Positions 39,001 through 45,000 of a stretch of 64,000 nt of DNA are shown here, in pieces (the first letter of the stretch is position 1; each line of letters starts with the position of its first letter). Source of the DNA: Gekko japonicus (taxonomy: Eukaryota); the NCBI RefSeq assembly GCF_001447785.1, contig NW_015160914.1, positions 1 to 64,000 on the forward strand, in the 5' to 3' direction. A program made the position numbers.

Positions 39001-42000
39001 GGTATAAATCAAATCTCTTCTTCTTCTTTGGAAGGGCGGCCTAGTAAATCCAAATAAATACATAAATAAATCGGTAACTTCACCTCCATTACCATGTCAC
39101 TTCTGAGTAATAGCGTGCAAAGTGTGGGTGACAGCCAAATGCCCCCCAAACCTTGTCTTCCTTTAATAAATCTTCCCATAAGGAGTCATTCAAGGGACGA
39201 GGATTACAAAAATCAGCTATACAGCCTTCAAATTCTTCAGGAAATGTGCTATTGTAAACCTTTCTAAATTTAGAAAAGGTGCCCCTAAAAGCCATTTTTG
39301 AATACAACATGTCCAGATGGCAGTGGGTGTCAATAAATCCTTCTTCTAAATACCTGGGCAGGTCATCAGGCAAATTGTGGCCTGCACGGTTAGTAACAGA
39401 TGAGTCCAATTTGCTTGGTGTGAAGAAAATAGGAATGTATGGTCCTACTCCCATACTTCACCGTCTATGTTTCTTCTCACTGAACAGTGAAGAACCAAGT
39501 GAACGTGGCCTACCACGCACATCTTTCAATGAAGATTCTTCATCCTTTGAGGTATTTGATGAAATAACAATGGAGGTATCTGAAGAAATGTGACATAACT
39601 GACTAGAATATGAAATACTATCAAATGAAGTATCTTCACAGGGGCTTGAAAAAGGACTACAATGTTCTGGCTTGGGGGTCTTGTCCAATATTTTGCATAG
39701 TCTTTCATCTTACGATCATACAGGTGAGGAGGATACAACACAAGTCGACCTCTGTGGCCAATGCTGAAGTGTCTTTTGTTTCAGAAGTACTGTGACCTGG
39801 GATAGAATTCTCTTGCAAGAAGATAGCCAATGGTTCTGCATCCTCCATATCAGACCAGTCACTTCCCTCTAAAGGCTCTGTTTCTTGCTCTGTATGCTTT
39901 TGGTCTACTTCTGAATGGTGTTCATCCACAAATACAAGTTTTGAAGAAGGTTCAACAAGAACTGTCCTCTGGAAATTCTCAAACTGAATTTTCATTTCAC
40001 TGTGGCCCCGGTCACATGGGCTGGAAAATGTGGGGGGGGGAGCGTAGTTGTTTGCCCCGGAGCAAACTAATGCACGGCCGCCAGATCACACATCCCGCCG
40101 ATGTCCCGTGGTTCAGGGGGAGGTGCCGATCACACAGCAATCCTGCGGCATGGCAAAGAAGCGGCGTGGTACGATCACAGCAGCAATGGCTAGGCGCCGC
40201 TGCTGTAGCAAACGGGGTTGTGTCTTTTTTTAAACCAAAGTGTGCACACGCACCGCTGGGTGCTTGTGCGCATCCCGTGGAGACTTGCAAAAAAACCCAC
40301 CTTTGTGCGATGGGACATGGGCAGGCGCCGGATGCCATGAACTACCACTGGAAACGCGATCAGACACCCGCCCTTGCCCCGTGGTTTCCGGAAACTAGTA
40401 TCTCGGAGGTACTAGTTTTTTATGCCGCATCTTCGGCGGGAAGCCTCGGGTTAGTCATGGGAGCTCTACGCTTTCCAGATGTTGCGGTGTGATCGCGCCC
40501 GGAAAATCCACCTATCTTCTGTCTCTGTAGCATGGCCAATGCTCCGTGTGACCGCAGCCTGTCTATGTCAACTGAGTTGGGGGCAGTACACTGTTCTTTT
40601 GTCACATTTTTCTGCTTTGTGGAAGCACCAGATTCTTTTGCAGCAGTCTTCTGATTGCTGCTCCCAGACTTGAACACTTCTTCGCCTTCATGTCTTGCGC
40701 CTTCAGAGACACGCCTTGAGTTGTTTTCAGGTGTCCAAGATTCTTTTTTACTCAGTCTGGCGCAATCAGTTTCTCCAGCAATTTTACTTTGCTTTTTGCT
40801 CCCCTTGAAGTCTTGAAAAGTTAGCCACATCTTCGGAACTGCTGTTGAATCTATTAAGTTTTTTGGGGGGGTTGCCCCAAATTAATGTCTTCTCTTGCTG
40901 GACTACTCTGGTTTTTCAGTTCTCGTGTAAGCTCTGGTTCATCTTCAAGTCTCAGTGTTCCAGAGGCATGCCTTGAGCTGCATCCTGGCCTGGTATCCTC
41001 TTTTCTACTGTGATTAGAACTGTCATTTTCTTCTTTTACACTAGCTTTCTGAAAACTGGATTTCGGTTTAAATTTCTGCTTTTCTTTCTGATCTTGAAAC
41101 TACAGATACACGTCTTGAGCTACCATCTGACCCATGAGAGTCTTTTTTTTTATCCTGCTGGACACAGATACTAATTTGTTCTTTTTGTGTAGTTTTGCTA
41201 CAGCTGGGATCTTCTCCCCCTGCAGACTGATGTCTCAAGTTGTCCACTGGTCCAGAAGCTTCTTTTCTGCAATGAAGGCTGTTCATGTGAATTCCATTTG
41301 GAGATGCTGCATCTCGTTTGGCTGGGAATGCTTTCCCTAAAGCACCTAGCTGAGCTTTTCAGTAAATTAATGCAGCTCCCCAGTTCTCCATTTTCTTACG
41401 GCTATATTCAGGCCCTGCATCCTTTGATACAGGGTGCTGTGTACAAGGTTTTGGCCTGCATCACTGCAAGCGTCTTGTTTAGCCTCATGTTTCAAGGCTT
41501 CCGAAACCACACTTCTCTTGGACATTTCAAAAACAGAACGGTTTACAAGATGCACTCCTCTGGAAAAGGAAAAACTCTGGGCCTCTTTAACCACATTGTC
41601 AATTTCATCATCAGTTTCAAAGTCATCAGTGGAAGGCTCTTCTGCTGCAAATGAAGTTCTTGAGAACACTTTATAAGAAGATTCTGGAGAGTGCAAGATC
41701 TGAGTCTTTCTGAACACAGCTCTCTTGTTGGCCAAGCTGCTTTTAGGGGAAGGATGAGGAAGTCCTTTGGTGGACTTGAAATATTTGGTGGGTGAGCCAA
41801 CAGATGAGCTGTCCCATTCCGTTTTGCACCTCCTGTTTGGCTGCATTGATGGTGGCTTATTGGCACACAATGGTGCGCTCTCCCACTATCTTTATTCCTC
41901 TGCAAAGCTTGTGGCAACACCAACGCACAGGAAAAGAGAAATGTGGAGAGGGGAAGGGGGGGACAGTGGGGTTAGAGGGACTGACTCAAGGCCAGTGCTA

Positions 42001-45000
42001 CAATTGGTCATCTGTGGCTCACTGAGGTGAGGCTGAGCTGGCGCCCACCATGTGATTGAAGCGAAAGGCAAAAGCCGGAAGTGAAATGGTGGAATTCCCT
42101 ATGTCACTTCTGGGTAAACCCCAGAAGTTGATTCCAAGAGTTATCCTGTCATTTTTTTTTACCCCATGACCCCTCCTCCAGTTCTCCTGCTGGTCGCCAG
42201 GCTCAGTCTCAGCCTGGCAGGCCTATTTTTCACCCTCCTTCCCTCCCTCCCTCCTTCCTTCCTTTTTATCCCACAGCTTGACAAATTAAGCACAGGTGAT
42301 GGGGTGGAAGCCAAAGGTTGCCCACCATGAGCAGGCCACTGAAATGCCTACTAGGAAATCATAGCTAGACCTTGGAGTCCACACATGATCTGCAAGTAAT
42401 GGGGGCTATGATTCAGTGCCAGAGGATTACATGATTAGTCCCTCCAGTGGAGATCTCAGGGAAGCAGGTGTTGATAAAGACCTTCCACGTACCATTCTGA
42501 ATGGACAGCACTGAGCTAGATGGTCCAGCTAGCTCTAAGGCAGCTTCATATGATATGCAAATCTTTTTTTACATTTAATCAATGAGTCAATTTAAGTGCA
42601 GGTGATTGATCTACTAACATTATTTAACCAGGCAACAGCCAACGTCTATGTTTCCCAGGGGCAGCATGAATGGGGTTGGTTTCTAAGCAAATGATAAAGA
42701 GGTAATCTCTAAGGTAAGCAGAACAGATGGGACTGTTCATTCCATGTGATTTACCTGGACCAGCAAGCTCATCGGGCTACAATTAAAACAATCCAATTGT
42801 AAAATAGTCCATCTTTTTCAGCTGTAGATAACGCCTCATAAAAGGAAACCTAAGGCAGTCATTTTTTTTACACAAGGCCTTAACTTTTAAGTAGCAACTT
42901 TCCCAGACTGATTTACAGCCCTCAATAAATGTGTCAATTTCCCCTCTTTCCAGCCCTAGATTTTGTTTTTCTATATCTCATTGTGCCAAGCAGCCAAAAA
43001 CACAAAAGATGAGGAGGGGTTTTGTGGGAGGTGGGTTTTTTTTATAATATTGATTTCTCTTAGAGACATATGATCAGTCAATCAACATTTCAATAATTTT
43101 ATGTTGTTTTTCTTTGAATAGCATTGAGAGCAACGGGGGGAGGGGGGTCTAAACAAACCAGTGCCTATTATCCTACGTCCAGGCTTCTATAGAACTACAT
43201 CTATGCAAAAGTAGAATAAATGCTTTTCCCAAACAAAGAAACAAGACAACTGCATGCTTCTTTTATAGATTGTTCTTTAGACCCATATTGCTTTGGACTT
43301 TTAATGTAAAACGGTTTCCCTTCGACATGTGGAGGGAACAAAAGAACTCGTTACACTTGTGACAACATGCAGCATCTCCAATTCAAAACACAGTGCATTT
43401 TTTAAAAAAATATATGCATTGTGTATTCTCTTTTAATGAGTTGAAAGCATTCAGTTCCCCTCCCTCTAGTTTGCCTCTGATGTGTACACTGCCAGAAATA
43501 CCCTGTGGTGTGAACATTAAAGGGACAGGTCTACGGTATGCCATTACTTACATGAAAGACTTACTAGCATGAAATATTTCTACTGACCTAAAATAAATAT
43601 CACTAGCTGCTAATAATTACTACTGAAATGAAACAAAAAGCACACTTGCATGAGAGGGAGAAACCATACAGAGGCAGTGCATGCTTTGCATAGATCACTG
43701 ACCTTGGAATGGTATGCCCTGAGTTCCAGTATAAGTATATGTGTTCATATTGGAAGGAGGAATGTGTTCTGAAGGTTTAGGTTTCCCAGGCACATGTGGG
43801 ACCAATCCAAGCATGCAGAGAAATTGAGCTTAGAGCTTCCCCCTGTGCCTTTTCCCTGTTTGAGATGGTCACAGGAGGGTGCTATTTGCCTGGGGGGGGG
43901 GGCTGTGTACTGATAGCTACACTTTCAATTTCCAAATTGAGGCAAAAAGCACCCCCAGGGCTGTTTCAAGTCAGGAAAATACTGCCAGAAAGAATGTCTA
44001 AATCCCCTCTCTTTGCTTGTGCCATGCTCCTAAGCATTTGTTGTTGTTGTTCAGTCACACAGTCAAGTCCGACTCTTCCTGACCCCATAGACCACATCAC
44101 ACCAGGCCTGACTTCCCTCATGCTCCGGAGTCTGCTCCATATGCTTATCTAATTCCCTCTTGAAGCTGTCCATGCTTGTAGCTGCCACCGCCTCCTGTGG
44201 CAGTGAATTCCATGTGTTAATCACTCTTTGGGTGAAAAAGTACTTCCTTTTATCTGTTCTAACCTGACTGCTCAGCAATTTCATTGAGTGCCCACGAGTT
44301 CTTGTAGTGTGAGAAAGGGAGAAAAGTACTTCTTTCTCTACCTGCTCTATCCCATGCATAATCTTATAAGCCTCAATCATGTCACCCTTCAGCTGTCGTT
44401 TCTCCAAGCTAAAGAGCCCCAAGAGCTTTAATCTTTCTTCATAGGGAAAGTGTTCCAACCCTTTTATCATTCCAGTTGCCCTTTTCTGCACTTTTTCCAA
44501 TGCTATAATATCCTTTTTGAGGTGTGGTGACCAGAACTGTACAAAGTATTCCAAATGAGGTCACACCATTGATTTATACAGAGGCATTATGATAGTGGCT
44601 GATTTGTTTTCAGTTCCCTTCCTAATAATCCCCTGCATAGTGTTAGCCTAACTGCTTTATGTAGAGCAGAGGCATTATGAGATATTAATTTTGCGGTGGT
44701 GCTGACCAGTGTATACAGGATTCAAAGACCCTCGGAGGAAATCTGGTTACAAATGGAGACGAGGCTAATATATGATGAAAGCAATTGGTTCCTTTTATTT
44801 CCTAACTCTAGTTCACATACATATGCAAAAACAGATTCTCACACACATGCATGCAAGATCCTCAGTGTTACAGAAATAGCAAATAGTTACTTTTACTCTA
44901 AAGGTATGGGGAAGGGAGTAGCAAATACTTATCTGATCAGAGGCTTGATCTTCCCAATGAAGAATAGGTGAAATAAACAGGCTAACTATAAGTACTCTAC

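What the first reader, a model, noticed from the sequence alone, without database searches (positions are those of the whole stretch)
39094..42117. TATDN2 retrocopy keeps its 5' end but lacks its 3' end, and appears primed inside the CDS by microhomology to the target site
Seen: the direct repeat atgtcacttctgAgtaa (39094-110) / atgtcacttctgGgtaa (42101-117) brackets the copy. The left repeat is also the last coding codons (YYSEV), and there is no poly(A). The far end looks like a transcript start (CACTTCCGG, CpG-decayed 5' UTR). Known: LINE-made retrocopies are normally primed on poly(A) and lose their 5' end. Inference: a nicked target strand, itself part of a hAT MITE, annealed to the mRNA inside the TatD domain and primed reverse transcription to the 5' end. 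This is the reverse of the usual truncation, and it may involve CR1/L2/RTE machinery or RNA-templated repair.
Basis: partly seen in the sequence, partly recalled or inferred. Interest (0 to 1): 0.75.

Follow-up and report, generated by a model that had tools for sequence, protein, structure and literature searches.

The report
Tailless TATDN2 retrocopy in a gecko
This is a dead, spliced copy of the gecko TATDN2 messenger RNA that keeps its start but stops inside the coding region without a poly(A) tail, a rare but already described kind of retrocopy.

Summary
A 16/17 direct repeat (39094-39110 / 42101-42117) brackets a minus-strand TATDN2 copy. The copy has 254 nt upstream of the ATG (41846) and codons matching residues 1 to about 735 of gecko TATDN2. 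It has no poly(A), and the remaining roughly 187 codons are nowhere in the window. It is spliced: it runs unbroken across a squamate exon junction (39897|39896). It ends 38 codons inside the next exon, so the end is not an exon boundary. It is dead: 6 frameshifts, 2 stops and a younger 556-bp TIR element.

Gecko parents read YYSDL where the copy reads YYSEV. Only the first 9 nt of the left repeat are therefore mRNA-like, and the target matches them at 8 of 9.

Best reading (about 0.5): a tailless retropseudogene made by target-primed reverse transcription that started at an internal mRNA site. This class is described in mammals and reported in the green anole, so this is a new member of a known kind.

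Main rival (about 0.3): an ordinary tailed retrocopy that later lost its 3' part by a deletion between the same 9-mers. The single repeat mismatch is mRNA-like in the left copy, which favours this rival.

The hAT-MITE claim is unsupported. The parent mRNA and orthologous loci could not be examined.

The parts
39094..39110 (.). Left copy of the 17-nt direct repeat. It lies on the 3' side of the minus-strand insert. Read on the minus strand it is TTACTCAGAAGTGACAT.
   Evidence: It is 16/17 identical to 42101-42117.
39102..39110 (-). Overlap (microhomology) zone. These 9 nt are both the start of the repeat and the last parental codons: the last T of Tyr TAT, Tyr TAC, Ser TCA and GA of the next codon. 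The right repeat matches at 8 of 9. The difference is at 39106, which is A on the + strand and T on the minus strand, giving Ser. The right copy has G at 42113.
   Evidence: Codon layout. Parental YYSD(L). The parental nucleotides were not seen, so the match is inferred from the protein.
39111..40003 (-). TATDN2-derived coding sequence, distal part (P. picta residues 442 to about 735). It includes the first 69 positions of the TatD_DNase domain. It carries frameshifts at 39746 and about 39675-39681 and a stop at 39460.
39894..39899 (-). Exon-exon junction present in the copy without an intron: ...EVDQK (AAG, 39899-39897) | HTEQETE (CAT, 39896-39894).
   Evidence: The Gekko kuhli model P0130 aligns to its residue 474 (EVDQK), ending exactly at window 39897. 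It then reads VRH, which is unrelated. Six unnamed genomic-type ORFs all begin to match TATDN2 at ..Q|[C/F/L]TEQEKE, with unrelated pyrimidine-codon-rich sequence upstream.
40004..40559 (.). Younger non-autonomous DNA-transposon-like insertion inside the copy. It has 16-nt terminal inverted repeats (GGCCCCGGTCACATGG / CCGTGTGACCGCAGCC) and internal GTGATCG-type inverted motifs, and is flanked by TGT on both sides.
   Evidence: TIRs. CpG o/e is 0.86 against 0.22-0.23 in the copy. It interrupts P0002 between residues 441 and 442. There is no other copy in the window.
40564..41846 (-). TATDN2-derived coding sequence, proximal part (residues 1-438 of the G. kuhli model; ATG at 41846-41844). It carries frameshifts at 41432, 41073, 40865 and 40792 and a stop at 41361.
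   Evidence: 377/425 aligned residues identical, 88.7%.
41847..42100 (-). 254 nt upstream of the ATG, taken as the 5' UTR of the source mRNA. An ETS-like CACTTCCGG lies 17-25 nt from its end.
   Evidence: Sequence; CpG o/e 0.30. Its origin in the TATDN2 5' UTR is inferred and was not tested.
42101..42117 (.). Right copy of the 17-nt direct repeat. It lies on the 5' side of the insert and is taken as the unaltered target sequence.
   Evidence: G at 42113 agrees with the GGG in two related motif copies and with the local palindrome.
42104..42131 (.). Target-site palindrome, TCACTTCTGGG-TAAAC-CCCAGAAGT.GA. The + strand junction, and so the inferred first nick, falls in its loop (GGGT/AA/A).
   Evidence: -8.9 kcal/mol, z = -4.4, 0 of 200 shuffles as good.

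Best explanation
A TATDN2 mRNA of a gecko was reverse-transcribed directly at a staggered chromosomal break, in the manner of a LINE (target-primed reverse transcription).

1. The + strand was nicked in the loop of a small palindrome, at ...CTTCTGGGT/AA/ACCCC.
2. Its free 3' end (...TCTGGGTAA) paired with an internal, non-A-rich stretch of the mRNA (UUACUCAGA, codons Tyr-Ser-Asp inside the TatD domain). That gives 8 Watson-Crick pairs plus one G.U.
3. Synthesis ran from there to the 5' end of the mRNA.
4. A second nick 17 nt away (15-17, given the ambiguous junction) produced the duplication.

The product is a 5'-complete, 3'-truncated retropseudogene without a tail. It has since decayed.

Shown: RNA origin (one intron missing), the truncation point inside an exon, no tail, the 16/17 duplication, and the overlap of the duplication with parental codons.

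Inferred: the parental nucleotides at the overlap, the nick position, the enzyme, and that the truncation dates from the insertion itself.
For: - The copy is colinear with gecko TATDN2 residues 1 to about 735, and nothing of residues 738-924 is in the window.
- It is spliced at EVDQK|HTEQ, 39897|39896.
- It ends 38 codons before the end of that exon. The six ORFs and the named proteins run on to ...QHK(V). A splice-site or exon-boundary artefact is therefore excluded.
- The repeat is 16/17 and sits exactly at both ends. Its length lies next to the 14-16 bp peak of L1 TSDs (Kojima 2010, PMC2912911, passage).
- The first 9 nt of the 3'-side repeat encode the parental (Y)YS+GA. My own arithmetic, from no tool call, puts the chance of a random 9-mer doing so at about 5e-5.
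- An 8/9 match of a given target 9-mer is common enough to be found in a long mRNA: 16 matches in 128 kb of both strands, with 18 expected. That is about 0.4 per 3.5 kb. Inside the copy the junction site is the only such match.
- The class is documented. It is 3'-truncated, without an oligo(A) tail and TSD-flanked. The insertion site is complementary to the terminal 2-18 nt of the RNA. mRNAs are among the sources, and it was detected in the green anole (Noll 2015, PMC5322556, passages).
Against: - The single repeat mismatch points the wrong way for simple priming. If the intact nicked end (...CTGGGTAA) were the primer, the left copy should keep the target's G. It has A at 39106, the mRNA-like base that gives Ser. 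The model then needs a later G-to-A change at that very site, trimming of the primer, or a nick left of the mismatch. In the last case only CAGA would have paired, and the adjacent 4/5 similarity would be chance.
- The site is not A-rich. The target (GGGT/AAAC on the nicked strand) matches the L1 consensus TTTT/AA only at T/AA. It does not show the Bov-B 'Tn-TA' signature (PMC13295347, passages).
- The parental mRNA nucleotides were never seen. If the parent's Ser codon is AGY, the overlap shrinks.
- This is one locus. No empty site or orthologous locus could be examined.
Confidence: 0.5

Rival explanations
1. An ordinary full-length, polyadenylated retrocopy was inserted with a TSD of at least 17 nt. 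Later a deletion (microhomology-mediated end joining or slippage) joined the CDS 9-mer TTACTCAGA to the similar TTACCCAGA at the start of the 3' TSD. This removed about 187 codons, the 3' UTR and the poly(A).
For: - It yields exactly the observed structure.
- It explains the mismatch naturally. The left copy is a hybrid: TTACT comes from the CDS and CAGAAGTGACAT from the TSD. The right copy keeps the target G, which the palindrome and the related motifs support.
- 8/9 matches between any 9-mer and a few kb of sequence are not rare.
- The copy is old enough to have collected 6 frameshifts, 2 stops, several small indels and a transposon.
Against: - It needs a deletion of at least about 0.6 kb plus the 3' UTR, with its right end falling within the TSD.
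- All other indels seen in the 2.4 kb that remain are 12 nt or less.
- It needs an original TSD of at least 17 nt, above the usual 14-16 peak (PMC2912911).
- There is no remnant of an A-tract.
Confidence: 0.3
2. The RNA or a cDNA was captured during repair of a chromosomal break at the palindrome. This would be endonuclease-independent insertion, or polymerase-mediated RNA-templated repair, with the ends joined by microhomology.
For: - The break lies in the loop of a hairpin-forming palindrome.
- The target is unlike the L1 consensus.
- A heteroduplex at the 9-nt overlap could resolve to the mRNA base.
- The 5' end of the insert carries a 13/16 inverted similarity to the left flank plus repeat. 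Only 9 of 500 shuffles gave such a match within 40 nt of an insert end.
- Endonuclease-independent L1 insertions involve microhomology at the junctions (Sen 2007, PMC1920257: abstract and the heading of section 12, section 11). That they are also 3'-truncated is recalled from the literature and was not in the text I read.
Against: [quoted passage not shown] Here a clean 17-nt duplication is present, and no extra nucleotides are evident.
- The inverted similarity was noticed after the fact. Over the whole insert it is not significant: 324 of 500 shuffles have a 13/16 match somewhere.
Confidence: 0.1
3. DNA-level (segmental) duplication of part of the TATDN2 gene, or a truncation that merely reflects an exon boundary or an alternative transcript end.
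For: None was found, beyond the fact that most of the covered coding sequence (residues 1-474 of the G. kuhli model) may lie in very few exons.
Against: - The copy crosses EVDQK|HTEQ without the intron that the G. kuhli model reads into (VRH) and that six genomic-type ORFs come out of.
- The copy ends 38 codons before the exon's donor at QHK(V).
- An internally polyadenylated transcript would have left an A-tail.
Confidence: 0.03

Closest known systems
Tailless retropseudogenes (Schmitz et al. 2004, known to me only through its citation; Noll et al. 2015, PMC5322556, passages read; Kojima 2010, PMC2912911, passages)
   Same: The copy is 3'-truncated relative to its source RNA, has no oligo(A) tail and is flanked by TSDs. 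The insertion site is complementary to the last nucleotides of the copied RNA (2-18 nt reported; 9 here). It is 5'-complete. mRNAs are among the reported sources, and the class has been detected in a lizard (green anole).
   Different: The published consensus target is A-rich (W, four As, two Ws), and priming is at somewhat A-rich internal sites of mostly small RNAs. Here the paired stretch is heteropolymeric (UUACUCAGA), the target is GGGT/AAAC in a palindrome loop, the source is a long mRNA, and the host is a gecko. L1 dependence is unknown here.
Canonical LINE-1-type processed pseudogenes
   Same: Spliced mRNA copy, TSD of typical length, dead on arrival and decaying.
   Different: There is no poly(A) tail. 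The 3' end is missing rather than the 5' end.
Endonuclease-independent (non-classical) L1 insertions at DNA breaks (Sen et al. 2007, PMC1920257: abstract, section 11). Morrish et al. 2002 appears only as a reference-list entry in Kojima 2010 and was not read.
   Same: Microhomology at the junctions and a target that departs from the L1 endonuclease consensus (section headings). That these inserts are also 3'-truncated and tailless is recalled, not seen in the text I read.
   Different: Those insertions show no signs of endonuclease activity and usually delete target DNA or add extra nucleotides. This locus has a clean 16/17 duplication of 17 nt.
LTR-retrotransposon-mediated retroposition (Tan et al. 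2016, PMC5131818; only the search listing and the start of the abstract were seen)
   Same: A non-L1 route to retrocopies in non-mammalian animals.
   Different: As I recall it (the point was not in the text I saw), such copies sit inside LTR elements and have short TSDs. Here the copy is directly flanked by a 17-nt duplication and no LTR sequence was noticed.

Membership tests
Processed (retro)pseudogene | Lacks introns that the parent gene has | tested here: met
   Contiguous across EVDQK|HTEQ at 39897|39896. The G. kuhli model P0130 stops matching there, and six genomic-type ORFs start matching there. Only this one junction could be tested.
Processed (retro)pseudogene | Flanking target-site duplication | tested here: met
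   17 nt, 16/17 identical, at both ends of the insert.
Processed (retro)pseudogene | 3' poly(A) tail | tested here: not met
   No A-run or T-run at either junction.
Tailless retropseudogene | 3'-truncated relative to the source RNA, with no oligo(A) | tested here: met
   The copy ends at the position of residue 735-736 of the 924-aa P. picta protein. Residues 738-924 are absent from the window.
Tailless retropseudogene | TSD whose RNA-proximal part is complementary to the last copied nucleotides (2-18 nt) | tested here: inconclusive
   9 nt (39102-39110) code for the parental YYS+GA, and the other repeat copy matches 8 of 9. The parental nucleotides are inferred from proteins and were not seen.
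Tailless retropseudogene | L1-type target (TT/AAAA-like, A-rich after the break) | tested here: not met
   The nicked strand reads CTGGGT/AA/ACCCC. Only T/AA agrees (consensus from PMC5322556).
Tailless retropseudogene | Truncation made at insertion, not by later deletion | not testable with these tools
   This needs the orthologous or empty locus in related geckos. No vertebrate genome collection was available, and the protein search for an orthologous copy found none (best 68% identity).
Endonuclease-independent LINE insertion | No TSD; target deletion or extra nucleotides | tested here: not met
   A 17-nt duplication is present.
   The flanks have no other copy in the window. Similarity to 59082-59241 covers only about 30 nt. 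No repeat library was available to test further.
TatD_DNase (PF01026) protein | Complete domain and open reading frame | tested here: not met
   Only profile positions 1-69 of 253 are present, at 24.4 bits against a cut-off of 27. There are 6 frameshifts and 2 stops.

The most novel reading that the evidence does not exclude
In a gecko, a reverse transcriptase began cDNA synthesis on an internal, non-A-rich mRNA site. It was held there only by about 9 nt of heteropolymeric pairing to a nick in the loop of a genomic palindrome. The 5' end of the same RNA also resembles the target, as a 13/16 inverted match. This would indicate RNA-guided choice of the insertion site, or RNA-templated repair of a hairpin-induced break, rather than a tail-recognising LINE.
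Probability: 0.12. Interest if true: 0.55.

Novelty: new member of a known kind. Interest (0 to 1): 0.3.

Why it matters
If the truncation dates from the insertion, this locus shows that tail-independent, complementarity-guided retroposition of a long mRNA also happens in Gekkota. So far the class is documented mainly for small RNAs in therian mammals, with a brief report for the green anole. It bears on how 'relaxed' squamate LINE machineries are. It also cautions retrocopy finders that require a poly(A) tail. As a single decayed pseudogene with an unresolved rival explanation, its weight is modest.

Tried and rejected
- Truncation at an exon boundary: rejected. The exon runs on for 38 more codons to QHK(V).
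- The rest of the gene displaced by a transposon insertion: rejected. tblastn found no match to residues 738-924 in the whole window.
- The 556-bp block as a retained intron: rejected. It has 16-nt TIRs and CpG o/e of 0.86 against 0.22, and it has no GT..AG ends.
- An orthologous copy of the retrocopy among predicted proteins: the near-length search gave 9 unnamed hits, the best at 68% identity, so none was found. I did not fetch those hits.
- MITE identity of the target: self-BLAST of the flanks and an alignment with 59030-59290 gave only a shared hairpin motif of about 30 nt.
- Rfam on 36000-45000: 0 matches.
- Pfam on 44 other window ORFs of at least 110 aa: the only hit was RVT_1 at 45646-46176. 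No LINE could be tied to the insertion.
- The neighbouring SINE: it ends in a (CTT)n-type tail at about 39022, some 70 nt from the repeat, and is unrelated to the junction.
- Literature search for a TATDN2 retrocopy: the 10 papers listed of 388 included none on a lizard TATDN2 retrocopy. A planned search on gecko retrocopies failed on term syntax and was not repeated, so I make no 'not in print' claim beyond.
- The ORF pieces were searched one by one.

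
Full report
**What is there**

With up to 3 mismatches the motif occurs 4 times in the window against 0.41 expected, and 0 of 100 shuffles reached 4.

A TATDN2-derived sequence lies between the repeats on the minus strand. The distal ORF piece hits Pfam TatD_DNase at profile positions 1-69 of 253 (24.4 bits, below the cut-off of 27). Its best named relatives are gecko TATDN2 proteins: Paroedura picta 84%, Euleptes europaea 80%, Eublepharis macularius 78%. 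The N-terminal piece is 87% identical to a Gekko kuhli model. The window is therefore gecko DNA, not human.

tblastn with the 924-aa P. picta protein gives colinear matches for residues 1-737, from 41846 down to 39098. Nothing credible matches residues 738-924 anywhere in the 64 kb. The ATG is at 41846-41844, and 254 nt separate it from the right repeat. No A- or T-tract adjoins either repeat.

The ORF pieces were searched one at a time. I did not build or search a joined or mended reading frame.

**State of the copy**

Frameshift-aware alignment of each half gave the following:
- 377/425 (88.7%) and 33/36 identical residues to the G. kuhli model.
- 217/270 (80.4%) identical residues to P. picta over the distal part.
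- Frameshifts at 41432, 41073, 40865, 40792, 39746 and about 39675-39681.
- Stops at 41361 and 39460.

A 556-bp element (40004-40559) splits the copy between P. picta residues 441 and 442. It has 16-nt terminal inverted repeats. Its CpG observed/expected is 0.86, against 0.22-0.23 in the copy and 0.06-0.11 in the flanks, so it arrived much later. The copy is a dead pseudogene.

**Is it RNA-derived?**

Yes, at the one junction I could test.
- The G. kuhli model (P0130, 477 aa) matches the copy up to its residue 474 (...SEVDQK), ending exactly at window 39897. Its last three residues (VRH) match nothing.
- Six unnamed, squamate-like ORFs of 307-355 aa (P0001, P0003, P0018, P0020, P0029, P0032) all begin to match TATDN2 at the next residue, ...Q|[C/F/L]TEQEKE. 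Upstream of that point they carry unrelated sequence rich in pyrimidine codons.
- The same six all stop matching at ...QHK(V), followed by unrelated sequence.
- A named Elgaria isoform also leaves the protein at QHK.

These are the marks of an acceptor and a donor site. The copy reads EVDQK|HTEQETEPLEG without interruption (39899-39894), so that intron is absent. I cannot say whether residues 1-474, or the 5' UTR, hold further introns in the parent.

**Where it ends**

On the minus strand the end reads ...GCA CGC TAT TAC TCA GAA GTG ACA TGG TAA. Named and unnamed gecko proteins read ...FARYYSDLHERN (Eublepharis: HYTD). Parental homology therefore ends after TCA GA, at window 39102. That point is 38 codons before the exon's donor site, so the truncation is not an exon-boundary effect.

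The repeat starts at 39110. Its first 9 nt (TTACTCAGA) are thus both repeat and parental codons, and the remaining 8 nt (AGTGACAT) are target only.

The other repeat copy reads TTACCCAGA, a match of 8 of 9. The odd position would be a G.U pair between target DNA and mRNA. The parental nucleotides are inferred from proteins; I could not see them.

**The target**

The right repeat and its flank form a palindrome, TCACTTCTGGG-TAAAC-CCCAGAAGT.GA (-8.9 kcal/mol, z = -4.4, 0 of 200 shuffles as good). The + strand junction falls in its loop.

A similar hairpin motif occurs twice in a palindromic element at 59082-59241. The similarity covers only about 30 nt, and the flanks have no other copy in the window. 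'hAT MITE' is therefore unsupported.

All three motif copies have GGG where the left repeat has GAG. G is thus probably the ancestral target base, and the left repeat's A, which gives the parental Ser codon, is the derived or mRNA-templated one.

**Mechanism**

The structure matches the published class of tailless retropseudogenes. These are 3'-truncated, lack an oligo(A) tail and are flanked by TSDs. The insertion site is complementary to the terminal 2-18 nt of the RNA, and mRNAs are among the sources. Outside mammals the class has been detected only in the green anole (Noll 2015, PMC5322556, passages; Kojima 2010, PMC2912911, passages).

My best reading (0.5) is internal priming at a LINE-made staggered nick. 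An 8/9 match to a given 9-mer is frequent enough for this: 16 in both strands of the window against 18 expected, or about 0.4 per 3.5 kb. A long mRNA will therefore often offer one such site, and inside the copy the junction site is the only one.

Three points count against this reading:
- A primer ending ...CTGGGTAA would leave G, not A, at 39106.
- The site is not A-rich.
- The nicked strand (GGGT/AAAC) shares only T/AA with the L1 consensus, and it lacks the Bov-B Tn-TA signature (PMC13295347, passages).

The main rival (0.3) is a normal tailed retrocopy that later lost its 3' part by a deletion between the CDS 9-mer and the similar start of the 3' TSD.
- For it: it explains the mismatch directly, because the left copy would be a hybrid.
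- Against it: it needs a deletion of more than 0.6 kb ending inside the TSD, whereas every other indel in the remaining 2.4 kb is 12 nt or less. It also needs an original TSD of at least 17 nt.

Break repair with RNA or cDNA capture (0.1) is disfavoured by the clean duplication (Sen 2007, PMC1920257, abstract and section 11). DNA-level duplication is contradicted by the missing intron.

**Unexplained detail**

The two fold together (z = -4.3). Such a match somewhere in the insert is expected by chance (324 of 500 shuffles). Within 40 nt of an insert end it is not (9 of 500). This test was chosen after seeing the match. Part of the likeness comes from both sequences resembling the ETS consensus, which I give from memory.

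**What stayed unchecked**
- The species' own TATDN2 mRNA and gene.
- Any orthologous or empty locus.
- The 5' UTR origin of 41847-42100.
- The identity of the reverse transcriptase.
- Supplements of the cited papers were not opened. The tables in Noll 2015 listing mRNA-derived cases might bear on how unusual a 2.4-kb example is.

**Verdict**

The mechanism is plausible but not proven, and it belongs to a known class. Interest 0.3.

Noticed in passing
window 40004-40559: A CpG-rich element (o/e 0.86) of 556 bp with 16-nt terminal inverted repeats and internal GTGATCG-type inverted motifs, flanked by TGT on both sides. It sits inside the retrocopy. There is no other copy in the window, and the family was not identified.
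   Followed up: partly
window 42075-42091 versus 39091-39106: The 5' end of the insert carries a 13/16 inverted match to the left flank plus repeat (14/16 against the inferred ancestral target). A match this good within 40 nt of an insert end occurred in 9 of 500 shuffles; one anywhere in the insert occurred in 324 of 500. It forms a 10-bp stem with the right repeat (z = -4.3).
   Followed up: partly
window 59082-59241: A palindromic element of about 160 bp (65% self-complementary) built from hairpin units of the type ATGNCACTTCTGGG...CCCAGAAGTGACAT. This is the same motif as the retrocopy's target site.
   Followed up: partly
window 38783-39022, 4744-4989 (-), 53894-54056 (-), also 48704-48780: Copies of a squamate SINE sharing the core ...CTCTCAGCCCCACCTACCTCACAGGGTGTCTGTTGTGGGG... 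They end in a (CTT)n/(CCT)n-type tail rather than poly(A), which suggests a stringent LINE partner is active in this genome.
   Followed up: partly
window 45646-46176 (-): An ORF fragment with a reverse-transcriptase domain (RVT_1, E = 2.4e-07), presumably a LINE remnant 3.5 kb from the retrocopy. Its clade was not determined.
   Followed up: no
window 34968-36149: A stretch of about 1.2 kb with overlapping open reading frames of 124-251 aa in several frames on both strands. None has a Pfam match. It may be compositionally unusual or repeat-derived sequence.
   Followed up: no
window 16414-16602 and 56623-57233: Two runs of N (189 and 611 nt). They were left untouched.
   Followed up: no
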